Shown here: positions 26,706 through 42,195 of the stretch, in pieces
Numbering within the stretch: position 1 is the stretch's first letter
Layout of the letters: each line of letters begins with the position of its first letter
IMG/VR virus record: IMGVR_UViG_3300014962_000009
Coordinates: 1 to 55,836 of that record
Length of the DNA stretch: 55,836 nt
Direction: 5' to 3' (one strand)
Source of the DNA: a virus
Lineage: Duplodnaviria; Caudoviricetes
Position numbers and translations under genes: made by a program
Notes under the pieces: model-generated
Database searches by the model: none
Told to the model about the DNA's origin: nothing
The model's input: only the letters and a program-made list of their open reading frames with translations

Positions 26706-29192
26706 TCAAACTCCTAAGTTGCGTTGTGCTGCTTCCTGCAGCGATAGGGCAGTCTCCTGCTGTTCCTTCTGTAATTGAACACCGTCAACCGTAATTTCAG
26801 CAGCTTTCATGCGCTCTTTCGTCAGGTTGTTTTCTGTGTTCATCGCAATATCAGCCTGCAACTTCTGATTCTGCATCTGAATATCAGCCTGATCACGCAT
26901 CTGACGGCGTTGAGTTTCAGCCATCGATGCCTGCAGCACTGCCTGAGATTCAGGATCAGACATCTGCTGCGATTGCTTCTGCTGCTGAACCATTTGAGCC
27001 ACCGTCTGACCCAACTGCTGCAGAGCAGGCATTACCTTCTCAAAGACCTTCTGCGTATCCATCTTGACGTGCTCAGAGGCAACGGCAATCGTCTGGTCAA
27101 TCGGTTTGGTCATGCCGCGATCATCGTATTTGTTCAGATCAAGGCCCGTATCAGCCACGGCATACTGCGTCATCTGATCTTTGTACCAAAGCACCATGTG
27201 CTGCTTGATATGCTCCATCTCTTGCGGCAAACAGGCCATAGCCACAATCGGATTACTACCCAAGGTAGGATCCAGAGCAAAGTTCAGGTGGCTCATAATA
27301 TGAGCTAGGTGATCTTGACCGGGATAAGCAAAGGCAGGCTTGCCAAGTGCCATCGACATGTTCTCGTCAATCGCATTCATCTCACCCGGCTTGATTGCGG
27401 CAGGCATCAACTCGGCAATATTCGGCACCTTCATCTGCTTTAGGAACCGGGAAACCACCGCACGGCGGTCAAACAGGTCAGGATTCTCAGTAGCAAGCTG
27501 TTTTACGGCCTGCATCTGCGCAATACGCTGCGTTTCGCTGAAAATATGGGGATCGGATACCGGAACAACGTCAGAATTGCGCTCAAAGTCTGAGTTTTCC
27601 ACAGGCAAATCAGCAACAACGTCGCCTTTTAACTGCTCGTCCAGATACCAGCGGTTAATTCGGCCCAAAATCATCAAAACACGCTTCTGAGACTCATGTA
27701 AACGAGCATGAATGCCAGAAAATACCGCCGCGCCTTGCTCAATCAGCGCCTGAGTCGTACCAACAGGCATATTTGAGTTCACATCGGCAATTTTTTCCTC
27801 TGCCGTGGTCACTACACCCTTAGCTTGCGTGGTCAACCAGCCCAAAAGCTCGAACAAAACCGGGCTCGGAGGGTTAAATGGCAGCGGCATAGCGATCTTG
27901 CGGACATCATCCACGCCCGGAGCGCCCTCAATCTCAATTACCTGAGTCACATCGATCTGATCAGACTGGCCAGAGATCTTTCCGCCCTTCAGTTTCATCA
28001 TCGTGGCGGAGTTATTGATGTGCGCTGTGTCCAAAAGCGCCCGCAAAGCACCCGTCAGAGCTGCAGACATGCCGCCAATGATGTGAGGCAGGCCAACAGC
28101 GTAGGCTCCACGCCATGGGATGAACTTAAACTCAACGATCCAGTCCAACTTGGTCATCGTTTCGTCGCCATCTTCCCAATTACGGTACAGGCCCAAGAGC
28201 TCATGATCCTGCCCATCAATCATCATGATGTACGGGGCCATCTCTCCCTTGCTGTATTCGTCATCCTCAAGCTCTAGCCATGTGTAAACGTGGTAGATGT
28301 TGCGCAGGCCGTCTATGTTGTCGCTCATAGACCGGCCTTCGATCTTGTCGTTGGCCTTCTGTGGGCCGCTCTGCTCAGGCTCCAGCGTCGATCTGATGAA
28401 CGTCACGTCCCGATACAGACCACGGTCAATCCGCTGCCTATATTCAAAGTCAGTGATCTCATGCACCTCAGTCACGCGCTGAGCGGTGTAGAAGTTACCG
28501 GCAGCAAACGGAAGGTAAATATTGTCGATGGGAACGAACTCAGCACAGGGGCGACGCTTCTTCTCGTCGTACCACATCTTCAGGTACTGAGATCCACCCA
28601 GCGGAAGCTGAGTCAGCATCTGTTCCTGCTCGTCGCGGTACTCTTCGATCTGCTCAGTGAGCTGCCAGTTCATGTAGTCGCGCTTGCGCTCAGCCACTTC
28701 AGTCTTCTCAGGCGTTACCTCACCCAGAATCTTGGTGCGGGTTGGGCCATCAGGCGGGAACAGTTCTTTGATCGCACGGGAAGCGAAGTCGATACAGGTC
28801 TCGACCATGATCGGATGCACGACCTTCGAGGCACCATTGAAGTTAGCGCCACCCGGAGAGTCGTTACCCATACCAGTACGGCGCAGGCCTTCCTCGTACT
28901 GCTTATCGCGGCCCTTGCGGTCTTCCTTATCCTTCTCAATCAGATCCAGATAGCGCATGGCAATCGAATCCAAGTCCATCGGATTGAATACATCAGCAAG
29001 GTTTTGATAGAAGTCCTCGTCCTCAGCAGGCGTCTTAAACTCCTTGTCCATGTTTACCACGACCGAACCGTCAGGCAGCTCTTCTAGCTCCTCGTCCTCA
29101 AGATCAAGATCGATCTCAGCCCCGCCATCAGGCATCTCTTTCAAACCGTTGATGAAGCGCCCAAACTCAGGGTCAACAGGCATTTCAGGCAT
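26706..29192 (-). CDS. Portal protein
   Basis: 828 aa: GASKVVHP, ELFP..GP, MNWQL, LPLGGS..K..YD, PVGTT.ALIE, PVSDP.IFS..QR, DH.AH. Confidence 0.88.
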   Translation of the reverse strand: MPEMPVDPEFGRFINGLKEMPDGGAEIDLDLEDEELEELPDGSVVVNMDKEFKTPAEDEDFYQNLADVFNPMDLDSIAMRYLDLIEKDKEDRKGRDKQYEEGLRRTGMGNDSPGGANFNGASKVVHPIMVETCIDFASRAIKELFPPDGPTRTKILGEVTPEKTEVAERKRDYMNWQLTEQIEEYRDEQEQMLTQLPLGGSQYLKMWYDEKKRRPCAEFVPIDNIYLPFAAGNFYTAQRVTEVHEITDFEYRQRIDRGLYRDVTFIRSTLEPEQSGPQKANDKIEGRSMSDNIDGLRNIYHVYTWLELEDDEYSKGEMAPYIMMIDGQDHELLGLYRNWEDGDETMTKLDWIVEFKFIPWRGAYAVGLPHIIGGMSAALTGALRALLDTAHINNSATMMKLKGGKISGQSDQIDVTQVIEIEGAPGVDDVRKIAMPLPFNPPSPVLFELLGWLTTQAKGVVTTAEEKIADVNSNMPVGTTQALIEQGAAVFSGIHARLHESQKRVLMILGRINRWYLDEQLKGDVVADLPVENSDFERNSDVVPVSDPHIFSETQRIAQMQAVKQLATENPDLFDRRAVVSRFLKQMKVPNIAELMPAAIKPGEMNAIDENMSMALGKPAFAYPGQDHLAHIMSHLNFALDPTLGSNPIVAMACLPQEMEHIKQHMVLWYKDQMTQYAVADTGLDLNKYDDRGMTKPIDQTIAVASEHVKMDTQKVFEKVMPALQQLGQTVAQMVQQQKQSQQMSDPESQAVLQASMAETQRRQMRDQADIQMQNQKLQADIAMNTENNLTKERMKAAEITVDGVQLQKEQQETALSLQEAAQRNLGV

Positions 29193-29203
29193 GATCGTTT
29201 CCT

Positions 29204-32200
29204 TTAATTAACCGTCCAGATTGATTTCACTGCGCCGCCATTAGCAAAGGCAGGCGCTTGTACAAATAGACCGCCGTCAGACATATCGGGGTCAGAGTTA
29301 TATGAATTGACTTCACCGCCTTCAGCCATGCCTTGTACATGCTTCTGCAGCATCTCGTTAAAGCGGGACTCGTAGTCCACAGCACCACCTCCTGCCATGC
29401 CTGCGACATGATCTTGCAGCATTTGGTTGAAGCGGGATTCGTAATCGACTGCGCCACCTTCTGCCATGCGGACAGCGCCACCGTCTTTATATGACTGGCC
29501 TATCTTGGCAGACTCACGCATCTTAGGTGTGATGTCGATGTAATACACCTTCTCGCCCATATCAGGCCGGAACTTGCGCAAGACTTGATTGAAGATACGA
29601 GCATATTGATCATCAGACATTTGCAGCGCACTTTTACCGCCTGATAGGCTCATCATCTCCCGAATAAATCCGGGCATAGAAGTGATCTCGTCAATTTGTT
29701 TTAAGGTAAGGTCATGCATACCCTTACCAGCAGCAGGCAGCGTAGTCTCACCCACCTTGGCACCAAACTGCTTGGCATACTTGTCGAGGAAGTTCTTGTA
29801 GGTCTTGTCGTAATACTGGCGCATACCTTCGCCGCCGACTTTAAGGTCATTGCCCTCCAAAGTTTTCCAGCCAGAAAATTCTTTGGCATTAATAATTTTA
29901 TCCGCAGCATCTTTGCCAATGTAATCAGCAAGGCGATCTTTGGTCACATTTTCATATTTGATTGTGCCTTCTCCATTGGCTCTTTGAGCAGCAAAGCTCC
30001 CAGTAGATTCATTCCAAACAACTTTGTCTACTTGTTTACTCAAGTCATAACGATCAGCCTGCCGCGCACCCGTAGTCAGGTACACCCGATCCATGCCAGT
30101 GTCTGCAGCTTCTTTGACCGCACGCTTTAGTCCAAGCTGATACCAATTGTCTTTAAATGGGGCGTCGGGGACGGCTCTGTAATAAGCATTTGAAAGATCA
30201 GTAAATCTCCGCTCTTCTGCCGTTGCCTGATCCAATAATGGCCGTATCTCTTTTTGTCTAGCAGGGTTACCACTGTTTCTGTTGAATTCATTTAACAATT
30301 CTGTCGCCCTACGTCTTGCCGCAACATACTCAGGATCTTCCCAAGAAATTTGGGGCACTTTACTTTTGTATCCCTTTTCTCTCCCCTGCTGATGCCAGTC
30401 AGATTGCAGCTCATCAATCAGCAAGCCCTTCTTGCCTTCAGCGTCAGTGTGGTCAGCTACACGCAGGTGGAATAGGACGTTGGGCTCATCACCGTGGTGG
30501 GTTTGGTGCATGAAGTCCTGAACGTCGCCAGCATCAGCTCTTTCAATGGCTGCGTTGTATTCTGCCCTCGACATATTATTAATTGATGGCCGATTGCTAG
30601 GCAGTCCAACGCGGATCTCGCGGTAGTTCTCACCACCCGGCAGGTTGTATTCAGGCGCTGCATTCGGGCCAAACTTGGCTGGGCCAGAACGCATTGCCTG
30701 CTGGTACTCCTTCTCAAGCGTAGACAGATGACGCTCAATCTCAGCATACTCACGGCTATCAGAGTCGAGGTACTGCAACTCTTCCTTCAGGTTGTCAATG
30801 CTTTCGGCAATAGCGTCTAGCTTCTCATTGCTCTCAGTGCGCACTGTCTCTTGCAGTGGGATGCGATTCTGTTCTGCGGCAGCAACCAACTCCTCACGAG
30901 TTACGTTCGGACGGGAGGCCAGATCACCCAGACCAAGCTCAGTCAGGCGCTCATCGTTCACACCCGGCGTCTTCTTCATCTCAGATACAAACGCTGATCC
31001 CGGCCCCTGCTTACGCTGCACATTGAGTGCCGCCTTCTCTACGGGGTTGTAAAAGCCCAGATCATTTGCCGGAGCCTTGACCTTACCTTTGGGGCCGCTT
31101 TCAGGCACCATACTCATGCGCATCGGGGCTGTGGCCCTCTGGAGTTGCATCTCTAGAATGTCGGCAGGCGTAGGTGCCAATGCCTTAGCACCTGCCGTGC
31201 CGTACTTCAGCGCCTTCTGTGCAGCACCGGGGGCCAAGATGGCCGTGCCAAGCTCAGTCAGAGGACGCTCCTCACCCGTAGTAATGCCAGCCCTGCGCAT
31301 CAGCTCTTGAGCGCTCTCAGTGCCATAAGGCATCGTGCCCTGTGGGCCAACCTGAACCTTGGGCGCATAGCCCATGGGGGGCGTTCTCTCAGGGCCAGTA
31401 TCCATTACAGACGCAGGCTTGCGCAGGCCGGGGATTTTTGTCTGCAGCCAATCCAGTGCCTCGCCACCCATGCCGATGATGTCCATCGGAGCACCAGCAG
31501 CAAACGCCACAGGGCCACGCATCAGGATGTCGGTCAGCGCACCCGGCTTGCGCATCGATCTGCGCTCCCGTTCTATCTGAGCCTTCGCCGCATCAGACAG
31601 GTCAGTTAATGGCTGAGGGATTGTCAGTGGCTTAGGGTTGAACATCTCGCCAATCGACTGCCCCGGCTCGTTACCGCCTGCCATATGCACAGGGCCACCA
31701 TCCTTCTTGCCAGTCAATTCCTTGATGCGACGGCGGTACTCACCAATCTCGTCGAGCAATTGCTGGTCAATGATCTGCTTACCACCAACCATCTGCAGAG
31801 TGCCGAACTCGCTGCCTGCCTGCTTAGGATTAGCGCGGATGCCAGCCACCGTATCAGGGAAGGTCAGCTCATAAGGCATCAGTACATCAGTGCGGCCAAG
31901 GAACTGCCCCGGAATATCATGCGAGTAAGTCGGATGGGCTGATGGTTTCAAACCCTGTACTCCGGGCTCCATCTGCATGAGGGAATAGCCAGTCATGCCG
32001 CGTTCCATGTCCCGCAGCTCAGGCTCACTGACGGCGTGACGGACATTCAATCCGCTGGGCAGGCCAAGCTCTTCTGTTGTCTTAGTGAGCTGCATCACTG
32101 AGTTGTAATGCTTACGGGCCTCAGGATTCTCAGCCATATACAGATAAGCCGCTTCTGGATGCTCAATGCCGGGGAAGTCAGGGAACTCACCTTTGAGGTT

Positions 32201-33025
32201 GCCTGACCGGATGATTCTGTTGAAGTGGTCGATGTTGCGCTGAGTCATCTGCTCTGGCTTAGTCGCCTTTAGCAGGGCGTCGGCATAATGCTGAGCATAG
32301 TTCAGGCCCTCTGGGCCCATCGCCATAAAGTTAGCCAGCACAGGTACGCCACCGTATTGCTCAGATGCCCCAGTCACCAGACGCTGGAATTTGGCGGCAG
32401 GAACCAAGCCAGACGCCCAGCCCGCCTCCTCAGGATGACCAAGGCCAAACCGTGGGCCACCGTACTGACGGGACGGGGCACGTAAGCCCTCGCCACCAAT
32501 GCCAAAGATGTCGTAGTCAGAGATCGAGATATCACCCGGCAATGACAGCATCACGCTGCCTTTGTGCGGCTCCAAATCAATTACGCCAGCCTCTGGCACC
32601 TCCCGGCTGCGCTGAATATCGTGCTCAAGTTCCCGCTCTAAATCGAACTGCTTACGGCTTTTGCCTGCCACGCTGACAGATTCTCCGGGCTTGATGCGGA
32701 CGAACTCGCCCAGCATCTGCGGGGCTATGCGCTCAGCAATCGCACTGATCTCAGCTTTGGTCTTTGGCTTAGCACGGGCAGGCTTCGGGCTCGGGCCCTT
32801 AGACTTACCTTTGGTTGCAACGGGGCCAAGGTCAGCGGGGCGCAACCGGGCAAGCTCTTCGCCTTGTTTCGCAGCCATCTCAGCAATGTACTGGCGCTCA
32901 GCAAGCGACAACTGTTTGCCAGCCTTAGTAAGTTGACTGATGTCCTGCGCAGCCTCGCCAGCCTTCTCAGCGCCTCGGGCTGTTTCAAATAGTTTCTTGA
33001 AGTCTTTAGGGCTAGGCATAGTCAC
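29204..33025 (-). CDS. Large multidomain (polyvalent-like) cargo protein punctuated by xxxGG motifs
   Basis: 1273 aa. GGENYRE...H.R...IDELQSDWHQ...PDAPF...GMRQYYD domain; motifs KKDGG, MAGG, YKDGG, MAEGG (twice), MAGGG, FANGG. Confidence 0.6.
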   Translation of the reverse strand: MTMPSPKDFKKLFETARGAEKAGEAAQDISQLTKAGKQLSLAERQYIAEMAAKQGEELARLRPADLGPVATKGKSKGPSPKPARAKPKTKAEISAIAERIAPQMLGEFVRIKPGESVSVAGKSRKQFDLERELEHDIQRSREVPEAGVIDLEPHKGSVMLSLPGDISISDYDIFGIGGEGLRAPSRQYGGPRFGLGHPEEAGWASGLVPAAKFQRLVTGASEQYGGVPVLANFMAMGPEGLNYAQHYADALLKATKPEQMTQRNIDHFNRIIRSGNLKGEFPDFPGIEHPEAAYLYMAENPEARKHYNSVMQLTKTTEELGLPSGLNVRHAVSEPELRDMERGMTGYSLMQMEPGVQGLKPSAHPTYSHDIPGQFLGRTDVLMPYELTFPDTVAGIRANPKQAGSEFGTLQMVGGKQIIDQQLLDEIGEYRRRIKELTGKKDGGPVHMAGGNEPGQSIGEMFNPKPLTIPQPLTDLSDAAKAQIERERRSMRKPGALTDILMRGPVAFAAGAPMDIIGMGGEALDWLQTKIPGLRKPASVMDTGPERTPPMGYAPKVQVGPQGTMPYGTESAQELMRRAGITTGEERPLTELGTAILAPGAAQKALKYGTAGAKALAPTPADILEMQLQRATAPMRMSMVPESGPKGKVKAPANDLGFYNPVEKAALNVQRKQGPGSAFVSEMKKTPGVNDERLTELGLGDLASRPNVTREELVAAAEQNRIPLQETVRTESNEKLDAIAESIDNLKEELQYLDSDSREYAEIERHLSTLEKEYQQAMRSGPAKFGPNAAPEYNLPGGENYREIRVGLPSNRPSINNMSRAEYNAAIERADAGDVQDFMHQTHHGDEPNVLFHLRVADHTDAEGKKGLLIDELQSDWHQQGREKGYKSKVPQISWEDPEYVAARRRATELLNEFNRNSGNPARQKEIRPLLDQATAEERRFTDLSNAYYRAVPDAPFKDNWYQLGLKRAVKEAADTGMDRVYLTTGARQADRYDLSKQVDKVVWNESTGSFAAQRANGEGTIKYENVTKDRLADYIGKDAADKIINAKEFSGWKTLEGNDLKVGGEGMRQYYDKTYKNFLDKYAKQFGAKVGETTLPAAGKGMHDLTLKQIDEITSMPGFIREMMSLSGGKSALQMSDDQYARIFNQVLRKFRPDMGEKVYYIDITPKMRESAKIGQSYKDGGAVRMAEGGAVDYESRFNQMLQDHVAGMAGGGAVDYESRFNEMLQKHVQGMAEGGEVNSYNSDPDMSDGGLFVQAPAFANGGAVKSIWTVN

Positions 33026-34458
33026 ACCGCGTAAGGGTTAGAGCGCTTGCGGCTCGGCTCGACGTAATCGTCATCGTCATCCACAGGGCGCGGGTCAATG
33101 TCAAGCCAGCCCGCATCACGCAAGTATCTCAAAGCCTGAGTGCAACTGTCCACATAATCGTCATGCGTTGACTCTGGGAAAGAGCAGATCTGACTTACGA
33201 ATCCTTCCGCCCAGTCCCTGACGTATCCCTTGCGCACTGAGCTTTCAGGTATCCATACGCGCCTGTGGGCGATGATATTAGCGACGATGCTAAGTCGCTG
33301 GATCTTATCGGCCTTGCCGGGGTTGTACGCCCTGACTGGGAGATGCGCTCGTTGTAAGTCTTGGATCAGGGATATGCCAGACGCCTTGTCCTCAATAAGA
33401 ATAAGATCCACCTTCTTGCCGCCGGTGAAGTTTCCTCGGCTTTCTTCCTCGGGATCAGCGCCGAAGGAGACTTTGTATTCCTCAATAACTTTCGGACGTA
33501 AATCCGGGTACTGAAGCCGATCCTGCCATGCATCGATGAGCATGACGCCCATGGGGCCGTCTTCGGGTTTAAACACTCCCCAAGTAGTCGCAGCCGTCGG
33601 GTCATTGACAGTCTTTTCCGTGTATGCGCAGTCATAGCTTTGTAGGATGAATTCAAACTTAGGGAAGTTCTTGTGTGTGGGCCAGAGCCGGAACATCTCC
33701 CGCTTAACCATGCCTGACTCTTCGGGGTCGATCAGTTCAGCCTCGATCTCCTGACGGCCAAGCTTAGTGCCTTCGTACTGCAGGATCTGCTTCTTGAAGT
33801 TATCAGCGAGGTTGTCGATGTTGGCATACGTCGAGGCGCGGGTGATCACCACATCGTCGCCTTCACGGCCCACCAGCTCCACGATCAGATCCTTTGGCCT
33901 CGGGGTAGTAGTGCAGATCAGCCTGACCTTCTTACCCAGACGCAGACCGAACTGCATCATGTCCCATGCGTCTTGCAGGTAATCCCATGCAGCCAACTCG
34001 TCACACCATCCGCCATGAAACTGTGGGCCCCGGAAGCGCTCAGGCTCAGATGCCGGAATGCCTTTGATCAGGCTCCCATTGATCAGAATCAACTCATGAA
34101 GCGCCTTGTTGTAATCCTTGACTAGTGAACTGGGGATGACTGAAAGCAGGCCAGAGTCCCCCTCAAAGCAAGTGCCACGCACGTCAGCAGAGGTTGGGGC
34201 TGCCACCACCCAGCGGGTATTGGGATTGCTCCACGCCCACCAGCCGAGCTCTTCGGCAGCCGTTCGGGTTTTGCCAGCGCCTCGGCCAGCCAGCATCAGC
34301 CAGATGTCCCACCAGTCTCCCGGCGGTTTGACTTGGTGCGCATGAGCTTTGGTGAGCCACAAGGAACGCCACTCGAAGGCGGCGCGGTAATTGGCAGGCA
34401 GCTTAGTGTATTGCTGGCGTAGCTCAGGATCCTTGAGCAGTTCGACAATGCCCGTCAT
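33022..34458 (-). CDS. terL: Terminase large subunit (Terminase_6-like)
   Basis: Walker A AGRGAGKT, Walker B WCDELAAW, TTTP, nuclease SYD.A, IEDKASG, HDD.VD. Confidence 0.95.
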   Translation of the reverse strand: MTGIVELLKDPELRQQYTKLPANYRAAFEWRSLWLTKAHAHQVKPPGDWWDIWLMLAGRGAGKTRTAAEELGWWAWSNPNTRWVVAAPTSADVRGTCFEGDSGLLSVIPSSLVKDYNKALHELILINGSLIKGIPASEPERFRGPQFHGGWCDELAAWDYLQDAWDMMQFGLRLGKKVRLICTTTPRPKDLIVELVGREGDDVVITRASTYANIDNLADNFKKQILQYEGTKLGRQEIEAELIDPEESGMVKREMFRLWPTHKNFPKFEFILQSYDCAYTEKTVNDPTAATTWGVFKPEDGPMGVMLIDAWQDRLQYPDLRPKVIEEYKVSFGADPEEESRGNFTGGKKVDLILIEDKASGISLIQDLQRAHLPVRAYNPGKADKIQRLSIVANIIAHRRVWIPESSVRKGYVRDWAEGFVSQICSFPESTHDDYVDSCTQALRYLRDAGWLDIDPRPVDDDDDYVEPSRKRSNPYAV

Positions 34459-34987: not shown

Positions 34988-35178
34988 CTATGTCTCCCAT
35001 AAACCGCAGCCATCAGGCGGCTAACCTTCTCTGGCGGCGTAAGGCCCCTGCTCTTATATATGCTCTCAGAACGGCAGGCTAGGCAGTCAGCGCAGATCCA
35101 GCGCCTAGTCCGGCGAAGCTTCCTGTCCTCTCCGCCCTCTTCAGTCTTCTTGCTCTGGCAGGATGTGCAGAATCTCAT
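34984..35178 (-). CDS. Small Zn-ribbon protein A
   Basis: FCTSC...RRWICADC. Confidence 0.65.
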   Translation of the reverse strand: MRFCTSCQSKKTEEGGEDRKLRRTRRWICADCLACRSESIYKSRGLTPPEKVSRLMAAVYGRHR

Positions 35179-35693
35179 TTGGCCTTTGCTTGCTTATTGA
35201 GCTCAAGGTTCTGCAGCAGGGTGTCGAAGATCTTGGACTCCACATTCACCTCTAGCGGGTTCTCAGCGTCACCAGCAAGGATCTGGCGCTCACCATACTT
35301 CTTTGGCTTCAGCTTGGCTGCAATCCACTTCCGAGCGTCTATGCGGTTCTTCTGCCATGTCACCCACCCGCTATCAGTGCGGCTCACACCCTTGTCATCA
35401 ACAACCTCAGCAGGCGGCTCGTCAGCAATTGCTTGTATTTCATCAGCAAGCGTATCTGCCTGCTCATCCCTAGCTCTCGCGTAGTTCTCTGAAAATTGCT
35501 TATTCTGCAACAGCCAAAGATAGACAGTGCTTTGTACTGGCATCTTCTCTTCCATGCATATTTGTCTCAGTGATTCTCCACATGAGATTCTTGTGCATAT
35601 CTCTGCTGCTAGTACGGGATCGTATTCTGTCTTGCGCCCGGCTCTTTTTCGGGGCTTTGGTTGCGCTTCGGCAACTGTAGTGGGATCAGACAT
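35175..35693 (-). CDS. terS: Terminase small subunit
   Basis: IC..I..GESLR.IC...MP...TVY.WL...F...YARAR...ID.RKW.A.KL.PKKYG (Sf6/P22-type TerS). Confidence 0.9.
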   Translation of the reverse strand: MSDPTTVAEAQPKPRKRAGRKTEYDPVLAAEICTRISCGESLRQICMEEKMPVQSTVYLWLLQNKQFSENYARARDEQADTLADEIQAIADEPPAEVVDDKGVSRTDSGWVTWQKNRIDARKWIAAKLKPKKYGERQILAGDAENPLEVNVESKIFDTLLQNLELNKQAKAK

Positions 35694-36218: not shown

Positions 36219-36390
36219 ACCCCCGCAGAGTTTTGGCTAAGCGGGCACGTTGACCTACCTTGCCGGGTTTCTTTGCGGCAGCTTCGAGTTTCTTTGCGGG
36301 AATGTTCTTTCCCTCGGGAACTTTAAGCGCTTTGCGCAGCGATCCCGGTTGCTGAATTGCCTTCTGTATCCACTTCTCCGACATTTTCAT
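36211..36390 (-). CDS. Small basic conserved phage protein
   Basis: KWIQKAI..PG.LR..L....G..IP..KL..AA..PG..G.RARLA.TL. Confidence 0.7.
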   Translation of the reverse strand: MKMSEKWIQKAIQQPGSLRKALKVPEGKNIPAKKLEAAAKKPGKVGQRARLAKTLRGFD

Positions 36391-36547
36391 TCCCCTGAGC
36401 AATAGGCAACTGAGGCGTAGCCTGCAATTGAATATTGTTGATCATTGGAGCCGACTGGTTAAAAGGCAAGGTGCCCAGTAACGTCAACAGATGATTAACC
36501 TCTTCAAGATTATATTGCAGCGTAATGTGGATGTCTTTGTTTTCCAT
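36323..36547 (-). CDS. Hypothetical protein
   Basis: EEVN.LL..LG.LPF.Q....I..I..QA.PQ. Confidence 0.55.
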   Translation of the reverse strand: MENKDIHITLQYNLEEVNHLLTLLGTLPFNQSAPMINNIQLQATPQLPIAQGNENVGEVDTEGNSATGIAAQSA

Positions 36548-36565
36548 TGTCAATCCTGAATTGGT

Positions 36566-36630
36566 GGGTCAGGCTGCAGTGTTGGGGTGAACTGACCAAA
36601 GTCCCCATAACCAGCACCGCAGCCCTTCCC
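36566..36630 (-). ncRNA. Long imperfect hairpin (leader, or last unit of the RNA array)
   Basis: GGGCTGCGGTGCTGG...CCAACACTGCAGCCT; TATAAT just upstream at 36637-36642. Confidence 0.4.
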
Positions 36631-36658
36631 GTTAAGATTATATGCCACCTATAAGTTA

Positions 36659-36737
36659 GGTTGTTGGCAAGCTTTTACAGTCGAGCCTACTTGTCCGTAT
36701 TCTTTCAACGGTGAGCTGATAGCTGTGCTTACCAACA
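36659..36737 (-). ncRNA. RNA array unit A
   Basis: Closing stem TGTTGGTAAGC...GCTTGCCAACA. Confidence 0.55.
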
Positions 36738-36816
36738 CGGCTGAGGACTGGCGCACAACGTCAACCAGCGAACCGATCTTTAGTTGCACTTGTAACCAAT
36801 CCTCATGCGTGTTGGT
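36731..36816 (-). ncRNA. RNA array unit B (ACGCATG/CAGCCGT scaffold)
   Basis: ACCAACACGCATGAGGATTGG-[44 nt]-CCAGTCCTCAGCCGTGTTGGT. Confidence 0.65.
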
Positions 36817-36932
36817 TGTTGGTGGCCGGTGCTGATCTCCGGCTTACTGCGTCCTCTCGCACTTCCCGCAGTCGGTACTTCGACAAAAGCTTTAGTGAGG
36901 AACGGGCGTATCAGCCTACGCATTCACCAACA
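36817..36932 (-). ncRNA. RNA array unit C, tRNA-like scaffold with loop-loop pairing
   Basis: TGTTGGTG-AAT-GCGTA-GGCTGA-TACGC...GCCGG-AGATCAGCA-CCGGC-CACCAACA; the loops GCTGA and TCAGC are complementary. Confidence 0.7.
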
Positions 36933-37005
36933 CGGCTGGAAAGGCTGCACCCATCGGCCGTGTGCGATATGCCACTGTCACCCTTCGCCTCCCCATGCGT
37001 CTTAG
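36927..37005 (-). ncRNA. RNA array unit D (second ACGCATG/CAGCCGT scaffold)
   Basis: CTAAGACGCATGGGGAGGC-[41 nt]-GCCTTTCCAGCCGTGTTGG. Confidence 0.6.
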
Positions 37006-37092
37006 CCCCCGTCTTTCCGGGGTGTCAGGTACTCGCTGCGTCTGTGGCGAGGCGCTCTCCCCGCTGCGGCTTTCACAGCATCCGCTTTCCCC
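37006..37092 (-). ncRNA. RNA array unit E plus small hairpin
   Basis: GGGAAAGCGGATGCTGTG...CACAGACGCAGCGAGTACC, then CCCCG-GAAAGA-CGGGG. Confidence 0.5.
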
Positions 37093-37114
37093 AATCACTA
37101 CTTTAACTCAAGCT

Positions 37115-37312
37115 TTACACTTCTTCCACTGTTACCCTGTATTTCTTGCCGTACCGATCCTCAACGTCAAGGATCTTCTTGGTGGATAGGAAGGCTCCAG
37201 AAGCCGCCAGATGAAGCTGTGGGGCTGAAACGCTGGATAAGAGCTTCTCTACATCATTCGCCTTCAGATTGCCCCGTATAAGGGCTGCAATGTAATCACA
37301 GTAAGCCAGCAT
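37115..37312 (-). CDS. Hypothetical protein
   Basis: 65 aa, STKK...V.D..G..YRVTVEE. Confidence 0.6.
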   Translation of the reverse strand: MLAYCDYIAALIRGNLKANDVEKLLSSVSAPQLHLAASGAFLSTKKILDVEDRYGKKYRVTVEEV

Positions 37313-39983: not shown

Positions 39984-40171
39984 TTCCAATCCCCCTTTTC
40001 ACCTCGATTTCCAAGTTTCCATTGATTCGCCACTTCATTCCGGAGCTTCTGACTGTCATGGTTCTTTTCCCACATTCGCAAAAACTCATAAGCCTTATCC
40101 CTGTCTTCAATCCGCATTCGGATAACTTCTCGAACGAGACACTGCCATATTTCGGTTTGTACATCCGTCAA
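39980..40171 (-). CDS. Hypothetical protein
   Basis: 63 aa, QW.LGNRG..GDW. Confidence 0.6.
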   Translation of the reverse strand: MTDVQTEIWQCLVREVIRMRIEDRDKAYEFLRMWEKNHDSQKLRNEVANQWKLGNRGEKGDWK

Positions 40172-41112
40172 AAATCACCCTTCTGATCAAACGCCATTGG
40201 CATTCCATTGTGCTTATCAATGAATTGCTGGCTGTCATTATGAAAATAAAACTCGAACCAAGGTTCGCGTTCCCCGTTTCTTTGTTTCTCGCACATCAGG
40301 TAAGCATCCGGGATCATCGGATCAACGTCCTCACCACGCTCCAGACTATGCTGCTTCTTCTTATTGCGCCACAGAATCAGAACATTGTCCACCTGATCCG
40401 TAATAGAAGATGATCCACGAAGGTCTGACTTGCTCGGACGGACTTCCTCACTTGCCAACTTACGTATGTGGTGAACCAGATGGATGTGAATGTCATTATC
40501 ACGGGCAATTGCCGTAAGCTTGTCCACAAAGTTCTTTTGCTCATTGTATGAATCCTCCCCCGGTACGCACTTCATCAGGCTATCAATGAACATGTGCTGG
40601 ACACCCAGCTTGGTCGCGCAGTGATGGCATACAGCCTCAATCATTTGGGCATTGACCGTGCCCTGCTGGTCGTACAAGTAAAGCTTTTTGTCCACAAAGA
40701 TCTTGAACCGTCCGTAGGCATCCCGCTTCTGGGAATCAGGCGTCTGAACGTAATGATTGGACTCAAGAGACTTCCCGGCAAACTGCCTGATCATTCGCTT
40801 CAGGGTGATCTTTGGCTTCATCTCAAAGCTGGCAATGCAGATCTTCTGCCCCTGCTTCATGAGCCCCAGAGCAACCTGACCAGTCATCAGGGATTTACCA
40901 GAGCCGTTGCTGCCAGCCCAGACAGTGACTTCGCCGGGACGAAAGGCAAAGCTATCAACCGTAATGCTCCATGGCAACATGACTGATCGATCCACCGGCG
41001 GATTGATCAACTCCTCTTCCAATTCGTCTACCCAGACTCTGGCTTCCTTGACCTTTGCTTCGTGGTCAGTCATCGCCAGATAGGCATCAAAATCAATATC
41101 GTCGTCATTCAG
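40168..41112 (-). CDS. DnaB/T7 gp4-like replicative helicase
   Basis: RPGEVTVWAGSNGSGKS Walker A, SFEM, IDSL, HLVHH.RK, D.RGS..I.D..DNV, KQRNG. Confidence 0.88.
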   Translation of the reverse strand: MNDDDIDFDAYLAMTDHEAKVKEARVWVDELEEELINPPVDRSVMLPWSITVDSFAFRPGEVTVWAGSNGSGKSLMTGQVALGLMKQGQKICIASFEMKPKITLKRMIRQFAGKSLESNHYVQTPDSQKRDAYGRFKIFVDKKLYLYDQQGTVNAQMIEAVCHHCATKLGVQHMFIDSLMKCVPGEDSYNEQKNFVDKLTAIARDNDIHIHLVHHIRKLASEEVRPSKSDLRGSSSITDQVDNVLILWRNKKKQHSLERGEDVDPMIPDAYLMCEKQRNGEREPWFEFYFHNDSQQFIDKHNGMPMAFDQKGDF

Positions 41113-41449
41113 GTACATAGCAATCCCATTCGCCGTTTTCGCTATCAATTATCAAATCACCAACTACAGTGATCACCCTTCTTGCTGCTGCCTTCTTCAA
41201 AGCATCGTGCAGTTTCTTTGCAATTTTGTAATCGTTACAGCCTGAGACATGCACCGTCAGACCAACAACAAACCGCAGATCAAGCGTCTCAGGATTCTCC
41301 GTCGGCAAGATCTCGATTTCTGGGTACGGCAGGGTATCTGCGTACAGATGCCATGTCATGCAGTGAAGAGAGGGCCTGTGGCTTATCCAGACGCCCTGTG
41401 GGCGCTTTTTTTCACTGCGGAGGGTCAGCAGTGCTTGATGACCTCTCAT
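41105..41449 (-). CDS. Hypothetical protein in the replication operon
   Basis: LDLRFVVGL.V.V motif; between initiator and helicase. Confidence 0.6.
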   Translation of the reverse strand: MRGHQALLTLRSEKKRPQGVWISHRPSLHCMTWHLYADTLPYPEIEILPTENPETLDLRFVVGLTVHVSGCNDYKIAKKLHDALKKAAARRVITVVGDLIIDSENGEWDCYVPE

Positions 41450-42195
41450 GAGCTTGTAGCCCGTTTTGGAGCCCAGTCGGGCATCCCAGCTTTAACAGCA
41501 GGTTTGGCATAGCTATCGTTTTTCAGCCAATCGGCGTTGAACCCACCCCAACCCCGCTCGCAGCAAATCGTAATCGCCTGCTGCAAGGTCAAACCAGCTT
41601 TTACGGCTTCCCGTTTGATGGCCTCTAGAGCCGTGTCAGTCATCGGTAATTTTTTAGCCTTTCTGACTTGCAAGAAATCATCCCAAAGAGAATCAGACAC
41701 GCCTTCAGGCGGCTTCTGCTTTTTGTTTTTTATTGGGTTAATGGGTTTATGGGTAGCATCATTTTTTGATTCTGCAGCATTGCTCGAGGTATGCTGCAGC
41801 ATAACTGTTGCATTGCTCTGGCTGTCCTGCGGCATTCCAAGGGCATTGTGCAAATCAACATGCTCTTGATGCTGCTGCATTGCCGCTGCATCTTTCCATC
41901 GTTTCATGGCTTTGTTCCGAGCAACTTCAGATTTTGCGTAAACCTTTGAAAGCTCTTCGTCACAACGGGTATGCCGCCAAAAATCATTTTCCAAATAAAA
42001 ATAAGATTGCAATATCAACAACACCTTTTCTCGTGTTGCACCAATCTGAAAAGCCAGCATGTCGGGATCATTTGGCAACGGACGCTCAGTGTCGTAATAC
42101 GTCCACATAAGCTTCAGGTATGACATCTTGTCAGCATCTGACAAAGACGAGGTGGCTTTTAAAAAGTCACCGATATGGTGGCTGTAATAATGCAT
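41446..42195 (-). CDS. Replication initiator, YdaU/DUF1376 family
   Basis: MHYY.HHIGDF...T..LS.....Y..L...YY..E.PL...H.RCD.E; C-terminal W.DF...RK.KK...C.ERGW.GF.A.W. Confidence 0.82.
   Translation of the reverse strand: MHYYSHHIGDFLKATSSLSDADKMSYLKLMWTYYDTERPLPNDPDMLAFQIGATREKVLLILQSYFYLENDFWRHTRCDEELSKVYAKSEVARNKAMKRWKDAAAMQQHQEHVDLHNALGMPQDSQSNATVMLQHTSSNAAESKNDATHKPINPIKNKKQKPPEGVSDSLWDDFLQVRKAKKLPMTDTALEAIKREAVKAGLTLQQAITICCERGWGGFNADWLKNDSYAKPAVKAGMPDWAPKRATSS

What the first reader, a model, noticed from the sequence alone, without database searches (positions are those of the whole stretch)
36817..36932. tRNA-mimic unit with a Watson-Crick elbow and an anti-RBS-like insert
Seen: an acceptor-like stem TGGTG/CACCA, a D-arm-like hairpin GCGTA-GGCTGA-TACGC and a T-arm-like hairpin GCCGG-AGATCAGCA-CCGGC. 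The two loops are complementary (GCTGA/TCAGC). The anticodon arm is replaced by about 60 nt starting CCGTTCCTCACTAAAGC, whose complement contains AGTGAGGAAC, a Shine-Dalgarno-like sequence. Established: P4 CI and P1 C4 antisense RNAs are matured by RNase P from cloverleaf-like precursors. Inference: an RNase P-released antisense RNA that blocks translation of a specific mRNA.
Basis: partly seen in the sequence, partly recalled or inferred. Interest (0 to 1): 0.7.

Follow-up and report, generated by a model that had tools for sequence, protein, structure and literature searches.

The report
tRNA-shaped phage RNA with variable insert
The flagged stretch is a real member of a large, unannotated family of phage and prophage RNAs that fold like a tRNA frame and carry a different insert in nearly every phage; what the insert does is unknown.

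Summary
Observation confirmed. On the minus strand, 36932->36817 holds an 8-bp closing stem, AAU, a 5-bp hairpin with loop GGCUGA, a 62-nt insert, and a 5-bp hairpin with loop AGAUCAGCA that abuts the closing stem. ARAGORN and Rfam 15 find nothing.

It is not chance. Pattern scans found the same architecture in hundreds of viral contigs, in three named Klebsiella and E. coli phages, and in prophages of alpha-, beta- and gammaproteobacteria. One variant matches 254 of 5,426 complete E. coli genomes. All three helices covary. The loops are nearly invariant and mutually complementary. The insert is hypervariable, 99 non-redundant of 114. A model built on 48 members hits the window once (E 9e-22).

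Where tRNAs are near, units share their strand, in five loci 6-9 nt upstream of one. RNase P processing is therefore plausible but untested.

The anti-RBS reading is not supported. Anti-SD motifs are not enriched, the CCUC strand pairs inside the insert, and no phage target was found.

The closest known architecture is STnc100/PasD. It is not C4/CI. Function is unknown.

The parts
36925..36932 (-). P1 5' strand (UGUUGGUG), the acceptor-like closing stem
   Evidence: Sequence. In alignment A2, 8 of 8 P1 pairs show changes on both sides.
36922..36924 (-). Junction AAU between P1 and the D-like hairpin
   Evidence: AAT in 74 of 83 unique units.
36906..36921 (-). D-like hairpin GCGUA-GGCUGA-UACGC (5-bp stem, 6-nt loop)
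   Evidence: In A3, 5 of 5 stem pairs show changes on both sides. When the loop was left free in the scan it was GGCTGA in 114 of 118 matches.
36844..36905 (-). Variable insert, 62 nt, in the place of the anticodon and variable arms
   Evidence: Inserts differ in nearly every phage: 99 non-redundant of 114, 29-176 nt, and no 7-mer shared by 6 or more.
36825..36843 (-). T-like hairpin GCCGG-AGAUCAGCA-CCGGC (5-bp stem, 9-nt loop), directly abutting the P1 3' strand
   Evidence: In A2, 4 of 5 stem pairs show changes on both sides. Loop positions 4-8 are near-invariant.
36817..36824 (-). P1 3' strand (CACCAACA), followed by ACCA
36932..37000 (-). Leader hairpin upstream of the unit. Arms are ACGCAUGGGGAGG (36988-37000) and CCUUUCCAGCCGU (36932-36944), ending at the first base of P1.
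   Evidence: In the family, 52 of 105 units have an upstream arm pairing at least 17 of 20 nt with leader plus P1 5' strand, against 3 of 105 in a control region.
36731..36816 (-). Linker hairpin between unit A and unit B: 21-nt arms, 86% complementary, 44-nt loop
   Evidence: Inverted repeat I1. The same ACACGCAUGrGGAUUG...CAGUCCyCAGCCGUG motif precedes units in other phages.
36662..36737 (-). Unit B: an 11-bp closing stem around a 48-nt core (36679-36726). It shares unit A's flanks (CAGCCGUGUUGG... and ...CCAACAAC).
   Evidence: The core is 94-98% identical to unannotated DNA in 40 phage records. The closing stem covaries.
37028..37092 (-). Module Z: stem GGGGAAAGCGGAUGCUGUG / CACAGACGCAGCGAGUACC around a small hairpin
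   Evidence: The same outer stem holds a unit-A scaffold in L071 and a unit-B core in L207, L208, L209, L217 and L241; L222 carries a variant of it. Metagenome contigs match 37028-37092 as a block.
37006..37022 (-). Small hairpin CCCCG-GAAAGA-CGGGG between module Z and the leader hairpin
   Evidence: Sequence. The same hairpin with compensating stem changes sits at this position in L152, L143, L167 and L176.

Best explanation
Unit A is a gene for a structured non-coding RNA read from the minus strand. It belongs to a large, so far unannotated family of phage and prophage RNAs.

The conserved part is a tRNA-shaped frame.
- A 7-8 bp closing stem (P1) continues without a break into a 5-bp T-like stem. 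Together they make a 12-13 bp helix, like the acceptor/T minihelix of a tRNA.
- After an AAU junction comes a 5-bp D-like hairpin.
- The near-invariant loops GGCUGA and AGAUCAGCA dock on each other through up to five Watson-Crick pairs.
- The anticodon and variable arms are replaced by a segment that differs in sequence and length in nearly every phage.

Shown here: the family exists, its helices covary, its strand is fixed, it takes the place of a tRNA in tRNA arrays, and its insert is hypervariable.

Inferred:
- The RNA is transcribed with its neighbours as part of a highly structured array (module Z, leader hairpin, unit A, linker hairpin, unit B).
- It is cut out by the host's tRNA maturation enzymes. 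RNase P would cut at the U(-1)/G(+1) start of P1, followed by 3' trimming, possibly after cleavage of the long leader and linker hairpins.
- The frame gives a stable RNA that displays the insert as its specificity module.
- By analogy with STnc100/PasD, the prophage sRNAs closest in architecture, the insert most likely acts by pairing with host or rival-phage RNAs.

My odds: about 0.9 that this is a real structured RNA family, about 0.55 for tRNA-type processing, and about 0.3 that the insert works by base pairing.
For: Family:
With the window's own copy that makes 124 matches, and 98 of them close into the full architecture under a strict rule.
- A scan anchored on the T arm with both loops free found 77 loci.
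- A scan with the D loop free found at least 120.
- R1 found 103 hits in 100 loci and 81 hits in 100 other loci.

Covariation:
- P1 8 of 8 pairs and T stem 4 of 5 pairs with changes on both sides.
- D stem 5 of 5 pairs.

Strand:
- G-U pairs occur on this strand.
- In 10 of 10 loci with tRNAs the unit shares their strand, out of 60 loci scanned.
- In L016, L036, L010, L104 and L200 the unit ends 6-9 nt before a tRNA.
- Five units are followed at once by an intrinsic terminator: L127, L143, L152, L167 and L195.
- SD-like words are depleted in inserts on this strand: GGAG in 22, against 32.2 expected.

Loops: across 155 units, the five proposed pairs are compatible in 153-155 units. T-loop position 8 is C in 126, U in 28 and G in 1. 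Unpaired loop positions vary more.

Distribution:
- Klebsiella phage KP591P1, E. coli phage vB_EcoM-ep3 and Klebsiella phage ST11-OXA245phi3.2.
- 61 of 80 checked bacterial genome loci, spanning alpha-, beta- and gammaproteobacteria.
- 254 of 5,426 complete E. coli genomes; none of the 25 listed matches is annotated.

Architecture: Rfam STnc100 has the same UGGUG-AAU-hairpin ... hairpin-CACCA plan. STnc100-like units stand beside a unit of this family between tRNAs in L084.
Against: - No expression data. No RNA run holds the stretch.
- No promoter or terminator of its own was found in the gap in this window.
- RNase P cleavage is untested, and a 3' CCA is not conserved in the family.
- No target was found. 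The longest complement of the insert in its own phage is 12 nt, which is chance level. Phage start regions pair no better than with shuffled inserts.
- Inserts share no motif and have no general closing helix: 18 of 99, against 16.4 in shuffles. A neutral spacer is therefore not excluded.
- Loop-loop pairing has only weak covariation, because the D loop hardly varies. GACUGA goes with U at T8 in 3 of 5 cases. An earlier pooled tally gave Fisher p = 0.02, without correction for relatedness. Two units with AGAUAAGCA break one pair.
- The near-invariance of both loops across three proteobacterial classes suggests they are read by something beyond each other.
- A2 was selected for closed stems, so its 'percent paired' figure is circular. 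Only the compensatory changes count.
Confidence: 0.5

Rival explanations
1. The frame itself is the working part. It would be a tRNA-elbow mimic that binds or occupies a conserved host factor of tRNA metabolism or defence. The insert would be a tolerated spacer that drifts freely.
For: - Both loops and the junctions are near-invariant across phages of alpha-, beta- and gammaproteobacteria, while every stem covaries.
- Inserts have no shared motif, no common closing helix and no detectable targets.
- No conserved neighbouring protein: at most 2 of 75 downstream and 3 of 70 upstream ORFs share a PHROG family.
Against: - Inserts never shrink below about 27-29 nt.
- Inserts are somewhat more structured than shuffles: mean z -0.51, p 1.6e-5.
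- Some insert types are kept, with compensatory changes, across many phages. Examples are the L022/L046 type and the ep3 type, present at 95-97% identity in 142 E. coli genomes.
- No candidate host factor was identified.
Confidence: 0.25
2. Unit A is only one domain of a single large composite RNA, the roughly 460-560-nt array from 37100 to 36554. That RNA would act as a whole, for example as the leader of the late (packaging) operon or as an RNA that assembles through its loops.
For: - The 461-nt array folds far better than shuffles: z -3.72, 0 of 100 as stable.
- It lies between the replication genes and the terminase genes on the same strand, with no promoter or terminator of its own.
- The same modules recur in the same order in other phages: GAAAGA hairpin, leader hairpin, then unit.
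- The P1 5' strand can also pair with an upstream arm in 52 of 105 units.
Against: - The modules occur independently and in different combinations.
- Units stand alone next to tRNAs or terminators in other phages.
- No match to ROOL, GOLLD or any other large Rfam RNA.
Confidence: 0.15
3. One reading: an RNase P-released antisense RNA whose CCUC-containing insert pairs with a ribosome-binding site and blocks translation of one mRNA, as C4 and CI do.
For: - tRNA-like ends and tRNA-array context.
- The C4 precursor is an RNase P substrate. I saw this only as a citation (Hartmann 1995) in passages of the review PMC4919922.
- The insert contains UUCCUCAC.
Against: - Anti-SD words are not enriched in inserts: CCTC 11 of 99 against 13.1 expected, TCCTC 4 of 99 against 2.6.
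- The CCUC strand is paired within the insert in the predicted fold.
- No phage start region pairs better than with shuffled inserts.
- No second site for TTTAGTGAGGAACGG with fewer than 3 mismatches. Three matches in all, counting the unit's own, against 1.05 expected; 8 of 100 shuffles reach 3.
- No Rfam C4 match.
Confidence: 0.08
4. A DNA-level element, such as a recombination or attachment site or a single-strand initiation signal, rather than an RNA gene.
For: - Modules are shuffled between holder stems, as if by recombination at conserved sequence.
- The T loop usually contains GATC.
Against: - G-U pairs and compensatory changes on one strand only.
- Constant co-orientation with tRNAs.
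- Terminators directly behind units.
- Strand-specific depletion of SD-like words.
Confidence: 0.02

Closest known systems
STnc100 (Rfam RF02076) and PasD, prophage-encoded Hfq-associated sRNAs of Salmonella and E. coli
   Same: - Same plan: closing stem UGGUG/CACCA, AAU junction, a 5-bp hairpin with a 6-nt loop, a variable middle, and a 5-bp hairpin abutting the closing stem (consensus shown).
- Phage or prophage origin, near tRNAs.
- In L084, STnc100-like units and a unit of this family alternate with tRNAs.
- According to passages of the preprint 10.64898/2026.05.13.724894, PasD and STnc100 have different seed regions and bind distinct target sets.
   Different: - Different hairpin sequences and loops: CCCCC..GGGG and CCGGG-AGGCA-CCCGG in STnc100.
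- The STnc100 model includes its own terminator.
- The window's unit and six short-insert members get no RF02076 match.
- The function of STnc100 is itself unclear in the passages I read.
C4 antisense RNA of P1/P7 and CI RNA of P4 (Rfam RF01695)
   Same: Small phage RNAs with paired 5' and 3' ends. The C4 precursor is cut by RNase P; I saw this as a citation in the review PMC4919922.
   Different: - Different scaffold: a long stem with two adjacent hairpins.
- Their targets lie in the same phage, whereas none was found here.
- No RF01695 match in the window at E<=10.
T4 stable RNAs rnaC and rnaD (species 1 and 2), encoded in the T4 tRNA cluster
   Same: Non-tRNA RNAs of about 120-140 nt that stand in a phage tRNA array on the tRNA strand (annotation). 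rnaC ends in a T-arm-like hairpin and rnaD ends in CCA.
   Different: No sequence or model similarity: the best R1 hit in the T4 region scores 7.6 bits. rnaC has a canonical GGTTCGAATCC T arm, which this family does not.
Canonical tRNA
   Same: - A 7-8 bp closing stem continuous with a 5-bp stem.
- A second hairpin after a short junction.
- Loop-loop docking.
- Sits in the place of a tRNA in tRNA arrays, with 6-9 nt spacers.
   Different: - No anticodon arm.
- No GG...TPsiC loop sequences.
- A 9-nt T loop and a 6-nt D loop.
- Not found by ARAGORN or Rfam tRNA.
Engineered 'tRNA scaffold' for expressing RNAs in E. coli; mascRNA and viral tRNA-linked small RNAs (the first and last recalled, not from a call; mascRNA seen in passages of PMC4919922)
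   Same: A tRNA-like fold used to get an unrelated RNA segment processed and stabilised.
   Different: Those use true tRNA arms. Here the arms are a distinct conserved design.

Membership tests
tRNA (Rfam RF00005 / ARAGORN) | Cloverleaf with anticodon arm and canonical D and T loops, detected by tRNA finders | tested here: not met
   ARAGORN finds 0 genes in the window. No RF00005 match at E<=10 on 36300-37300. True tRNAs in other loci were found by the same tools.
tmRNA | tRNA-like domain plus tag reading frame, detected by ARAGORN | tested here: not met
   ARAGORN finds no tmRNA. No Rfam tmRNA match.
C4 / CI antisense RNA (RF01695) | Match to the C4 covariance model: a long stem enclosing two hairpins | tested here: not met
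   No match at E<=10. The positive control, P4 CI, scores 74.9 bits against a gathering score of 45.
C4 / CI antisense RNA (RF01695) | Complementary target sites in the same phage | tested here: not met
   The longest complement in the whole 55.8-kb phage is 12 nt, as in control loci. Start regions pair no better than with shuffles. Short 8-9 nt sites cannot be excluded.
C4 / CI antisense RNA (RF01695) | 5' end made by RNase P | not testable with these tools
   Needs an in vitro or in vivo cleavage assay.
STnc100 / PasD (RF02076) | Match to the RF02076 covariance model | tested here: not met
   No match for the window or for six short-insert members. In L084 three neighbouring units do match, at 90.6, 58.9 and 54.7 bits.
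STnc100 / PasD (RF02076) | Architecture: UGGUG-AAU-hairpin ... hairpin-CACCA with a variable middle | tested here: met
   Comparison of the RF02076 consensus with alignment A2.
STnc100 / PasD (RF02076) | Hfq-associated, base-pairing sRNA | not testable with these tools
   Needs RIL-seq, CLASH or co-immunoprecipitation.
The family defined here (model R1) | P1, AAU, 5-bp hairpin with GGCUGA loop, insert, 5-bp hairpin with AGAUCAGCA loop abutting P1 | tested here: met
   90.3 bits, E 9.1e-22, full-length match 1-121. The unit was one of the 48 training sequences, so the score is partly by construction. Members not used for training score 34-92 bits.

The most novel reading that the evidence does not exclude
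Phages of proteobacteria share a modular RNA 'display' system. A conserved tRNA-shaped chassis is excised by the host's tRNA-processing enzymes and presents a hypervariable cargo. The cargo is exchanged like a cassette between phages and sets the specificity of a regulatory or counter-defence activity against host or rival-phage RNAs. The chassis, the leader and linker hairpins, the unit-B core and the GGGGAAAGCGG...GCGAGUACC holder would be interchangeable parts of one RNA toolkit. That toolkit would also account for the non-tRNA occupants of phage tRNA arrays.
Probability: 0.3. Interest if true: 0.85.

Novelty: new variant of a known kind. Interest (0 to 1): 0.7.

Why it matters
A structured RNA present in hundreds of phage contigs is missing from Rfam 15 and from RefSeq annotation. 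It also occurs in prophages of three proteobacterial classes and in about 5% of complete E. coli genomes.

It is a natural counterpart of the engineered tRNA scaffold. It joins STnc100/PasD, C4/CI and the T4 stable RNAs as tRNA-cluster-associated phage RNAs. Its combination of an almost invariant frame with a hypervariable insert points either to programmable specificity or to a conserved host target of the frame.

Either answer would be new biology. Both are directly testable in cultured phage-host pairs.

Tried and rejected
- Rfam at gathering score and at E<=10 on the window, and at E<=1 on 13 and then 6 family loci: no family covers the unit.
- ARAGORN: nothing.
- Thermodynamic z-score of the unit alone: unremarkable, -0.78.
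- Target search. No long complement of inserts in their own loci: best 12 nt, as in controls, over 114 inserts. No favoured phage start region. Host targets could not be searched because the host of this window is unknown.
- Shared motif or closing helix in inserts: none.
- Conserved neighbouring protein: none.
- T4 rnaC/rnaD as relatives: no model hit.
- P4 CI / C4 as the family: rejected.
- Sequencing runs: no RNA holder listed. Contigs of four metagenome runs were laid. Two are labelled RNA-Seq, but the tool marks that label as a guess. They match the two scaffold halves and skip or replace the insert. Being contigs, they say nothing on expression.
- Literature. No paper holds the hairpin sequences (six strings, 0 papers). 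Keyword searches returned nothing that describes this family. Supplements were closed and not seen. Supplementary tables of the Pas sRNA preprint may list related hits.
- A weak R1 hit at 2335-2445(+), E 0.58, was looked at and dropped as not significant.
Full report
WHAT IS THERE

The window is a whole viral record of 55,836 bases, estimated 99% complete. The finding lies in a 560-base gap without ORFs, 36554-37114, between small minus-strand ORFs. The replication genes lie upstream on the same strand: a primosomal/O-like gene at 41446-42195 and DnaB at 40168-41148. The packaging genes lie downstream: TerS 35175-35693, TerL 33022-34458 and portal 26706-29192.

- UGUUGGUG, the P1 5' strand;
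- AAU;
- GCGUA-GGCUGA-UACGC;
- a 62-nt insert;
- GCCGG-AGAUCAGCA-CCGGC;
- directly after it, CACCAACA, the P1 3' strand.

ARAGORN finds no tRNA or tmRNA in the window. Rfam 15 finds nothing at gathering score and only two noise matches at E<=10. The unit's folding energy is ordinary, z = -0.78. The case for it therefore rests on comparison with other sequences.

A LARGE FAMILY

Printing the flanks showed the same plan in nearly all of them:
- a closing stem that changes on both sides (UGUUGGUG/CACCAACA, UGAUAGUU/AACUAUCA, UGUUAGUG/CACUAACA, UUGUGGUG/CACCACAA and others);
- AAU;
- the hairpin;
- an unrelated middle segment;
- the T-like hairpin.

Counting the window's copy there were 124 matches. 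Under a strict rule (T hairpin fully paired, P1 at least 7 of 8 pairs), 98 closed, giving 83 unique units. A few of these closures are false hairpins found by the rule.

A second scan fixed only the T stem and the P1 3' strand and left both loops free. It found 77 loci, of which only 3 had been seen before. In that set the commonest D-like hairpin is GCGCA-GGCUGA-UGCGC, with 31 cases. The window's GCGUA...UACGC form has 10. GCGAA/UUCGC, GCACA/UGUGC, GUGCA/UGCAC and GCCGG/CCGGC also occur.

The loop was GGCUGA in 114 of 118 matches, GACUGA in 3 and GGCUUA in 1.

STRUCTURE

I aligned 48 units with distinct inserts (A2).
- All 8 P1 pairs and 4 of 5 T-stem pairs show changes on both sides.
- 101 cells have double changes, against 22.9 +/- 3.5 in shuffles.
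- Sliding the partner by 1-3 columns destroys the signal.
- These 48 were chosen for closed stems, so the 98.7% 'paired' figure is circular and only the compensatory changes count.
- The D stem was invariant in A2 because of how the sequences were found.

The model R1 built on A2 was then run on 100 other loci. It gave 81 hits, and in their alignment (A3) all 5 D-stem pairs show changes on both sides.

In the window, R1 finds the unit at 90.3 bits (E 9.1e-22) and nothing else above 11.5 bits.

For the loops I used a definition that constrains only helix geometry and the two junction A residues. It gave 155 units with distinct inserts.
- D loop: GGCUGA in 149, GACUGA in 5, AGCUGA in 1.
- T-loop positions 4-8 (UCAGC) are near-invariant. 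Position 8 is C in 126, U in 28 and G in 1. Position 5 is C in 149, U in 4 and A in 2.
- The flanking loop positions 2, 3 and 9 vary more.
- The five proposed loop-loop pairs are compatible in 153, 155, 154, 153 and 153 of the 155 units.
- The rare D-loop A at position 2 goes with U at T8 in 3 of 5 cases.

An earlier pooled tally gave Fisher p = 0.02, but the sequences are related and the numbers are small. Several scans also fixed one loop.

So the 'Watson-Crick elbow' is consistent with the data and weakly supported. It is not proven. The invariance of both loops suggests an additional reader.

THE STRAND, AND THE tRNA CONNECTION

G-U pairs occur in all three helices on this strand. ARAGORN on 60 family loci found tRNAs in 10, always on the unit's strand.

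In five loci the unit ends 6-9 nt before a tRNA, which is the spacing between tRNAs in phage arrays:
- L016, L036, L010 and L104;
- Klebsiella phage KP591P1 (L200), where the order is unit, tRNA-Ser, tRNA-Arg, tRNA-Met.

Other units are followed at once by an intrinsic terminator.

P1 plus the T-like stem form 12-13 continuous pairs. The base before P1 is usually U and the first base of the 7-bp core is usually G. From general knowledge of RNase P, these are the features of a good substrate. That is inference: no cleavage was tested, and a 3' CCA is not conserved, although the window reads CACCAACA-A-CCA.

THE INSERT

Of 114 distinct inserts, 99 share fewer than three 12-mers with any other.
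- Lengths run from 29 to 176 nt, median 64.
- No 7-mer occurs in 6 or more inserts.
- Only the last two bases are constrained: A at -2 in 95 of 99, and A or U at -1 in 97 of 99.
- Inserts are slightly more structured than shuffles: mean z -0.51, p 1.6e-5.
- They have no general end-to-end closing helix: 18 of 99, against 16.4 +/- 3.7.
- Anti-SD words are not enriched. SD-like words are depleted: GGAG 22 against 32.2, GAGG 19 against 31.9, AGGA 21 against 34.2.

In the window's insert the CCUC strand is predicted to pair with GAGAGGACG of the same insert. The insert has no complement longer than 12 nt anywhere in its phage, which is chance level. Its best duplex with 76 phage start regions is matched by 76 of 200 shuffled inserts. 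For the 17-nt 'anti-RBS' part, 195 of 200 shuffles do as well.

The specific anti-RBS mechanism is therefore not supported. A host target cannot be excluded, because the host of this window is unknown.

DISTRIBUTION AND ANNOTATION

R1 finds the unit in Klebsiella phage KP591P1, E. coli phage vB_EcoM-ep3 and Klebsiella phage ST11-OXA245phi3.2. It is unannotated in the first two and lies under a 'hypothetical protein' CDS in the third.

Of 80 loci checked with R1, 61 have a hit. They include Enterobacterales, Pseudomonas, Xanthomonadales, Burkholderiales, Nitrosomonas, Rhizobium, Martelella and Pelagibacterium. A few hits are in MAGs of other phyla and may be binning errors. The other 19 loci gave no hit; about 17 chance matches to the pattern are expected over the whole collection by my estimate.

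The ep3 unit matches 254 of 5,426 complete E. coli genomes.
- 142 genomes carry the same insert at 95-97% identity.
- The rest match only the 5' scaffold half.
- None of the 25 listed matches lies under an annotated feature.

Contigs from four aquatic or aquaculture metagenome runs match the two scaffold halves and skip or replace the insert. No RNA run holds the stretch.

No PHROG family recurs next to the unit: at most 2 of 75 downstream ORFs and 3 of 70 upstream ORFs.

THE SURROUNDINGS ARE MODULAR

Unit B. 190 nt downstream lies unit B (36737->36662), with the same flanks as unit A.
- Its 48-nt core is 94-98% identical to unannotated DNA in 40 phage records. These include T4-like Aeromonas, Enterobacter and Serratia phages, a Pseudomonas phage and 72-kb Salmonella phages.
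- In the four of those records I inspected it sits inside tRNA arrays on the tRNA strand.
- Its closing stem covaries.
- Internal positions also covary: AUC[N]GCU with GGC[N']CGA, and UAUC/UAUU with CGAC/CAAC.
- Across 39 distinct copies the same core is held by four kinds of stem: the UGUUGG-type P1, the loop of the linker hairpin, the GGGGAAAGCGGAUGCUG...CAGACGCAGCGAGUACC stem, and arbitrary stems in tRNA arrays.

Module Z. The third of those stems is the window's module Z (37092->37028). In L071 it holds a unit-A scaffold.

Leader and linker hairpins. Units are preceded by a hairpin ACACGCAUGrGGAUUG-loop-CAGUCCyCAGCCGUG.
- In 52 of 105 units an upstream arm can pair with at least 17 of 20 nt of leader plus P1 5' strand, against 3 of 105 in a control region.
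- This arm changes together with the P1 class.
- The P1 5' strand therefore often has two possible partners.
- In the window's unit A the leader hairpin stops at P1, and both helices can form together.

Whole array. The 461-nt array folds with z = -3.72. I cannot tell whether this reflects a processing pathway, a switch, or concerted evolution of repeats in arrays.

COMPARISON WITH KNOWN FAMILIES

- C4/CI is a different scaffold.
- STnc100 (RF02076) has the same plan but different hairpins, and its model does not match this family. STnc100 and PasD are prophage sRNAs detected with Hfq, with distinct seeds and unclear function. I read this in passages of 10.64898/2026.05.13.724894 and PMC12370729.
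- T4 rnaC and rnaD are analogous non-tRNA occupants of a tRNA array, but they are unrelated by the model.
- I found no paper that holds the hairpin sequences and none that describes the family. Supplements could not be read.

VERDICT

- The unit is a genuine member of a widespread, unannotated phage RNA family with a tRNA-shaped frame and a hypervariable insert.
- tRNA-type processing is likely but untested.
- The anti-RBS antisense reading is not supported.
- What the insert, or the frame, does remains open.

Noticed in passing
window 36662-36737 (-), core 36679-36726: Unit B is a 48-nt core, ACAGCUAUCAGCUCACCGUUGAAAGAAUACGGACAAGU(A/C)GGCUCGACU. It is 94-98% identical in 40 phage records of very different phages and in 41 viral contigs. 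It is unannotated and not called by ARAGORN; in the records inspected it lies in tRNA arrays. The closing stem and several internal positions covary. Function unknown.
   Followed up: partly
window 37028-37092 (-); L071, L207, L208, L209, L217, L222, L241: The holder stem GGGGAAAGCGGAUGCUG...CAGACGCAGCGAGUACC recurs around different contents: a small hairpin here, a unit-A scaffold in L071, and a unit-B core in the others (L222 carries a variant). Its GAA / AGUA strands look like a loop-E or sarcin-ricin-type internal loop. That resemblance is recalled and not tested.
   Followed up: partly
window 36731-36816 and 36932-37000 (-); family loci: Each unit is preceded by a long imperfect hairpin whose 3' arm runs into the P1 5' strand. 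In 52 of 105 units the upstream arm can pair with P1's 5' strand as well, which gives two alternative partners.
   Followed up: partly
L143:4124-4240 (+): In this phage the insert of the scaffold contains a tRNA D arm (GUAGCUCAGUUGGUAGAGC) and a T arm (GUGGGUUCGAGUCCCAC) but no anticodon arm. It is a truncated tRNA nested inside the tRNA-shaped frame.
   Followed up: no
L084:1507-3075 (+): Three Rfam STnc100 matches (90.6, 58.9, 54.7 bits) are interleaved with tRNA-Met, tRNA-Gly and tRNA-Arg and with a unit of the family described here. The 3' 'terminator' part of the STnc100 model is aligned onto the 5' part of the next tRNA.
   Followed up: no
99 non-redundant inserts from family loci: Shine-Dalgarno-like words (GGAG, GAGG, AGGA, GGAGG) are depleted to about 60% or less of expectation on the RNA strand of the inserts. 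Their complements are not clearly depleted.
   Followed up: no
L127, L143, L152, L167, L195: In these phages the unit is followed at once by an intrinsic terminator. In L127, L152 and L167 it reads AACCCGCUCACAAGGCGGGUUUUUU; L143 and L195 carry variants of the same hairpin. A conserved T-rich, promoter-like stretch comes next. The layout is like a leader RNA ending at a terminator ahead of downstream genes.
   Followed up: no
window 29204-33025 (-): A 1,273-aa ORF lies between the large terminase and portal genes. It has no Pfam match and only a partial PHROG 'endolysin' match, residues 648-1006, E 2.6e-17.
   Followed up: no
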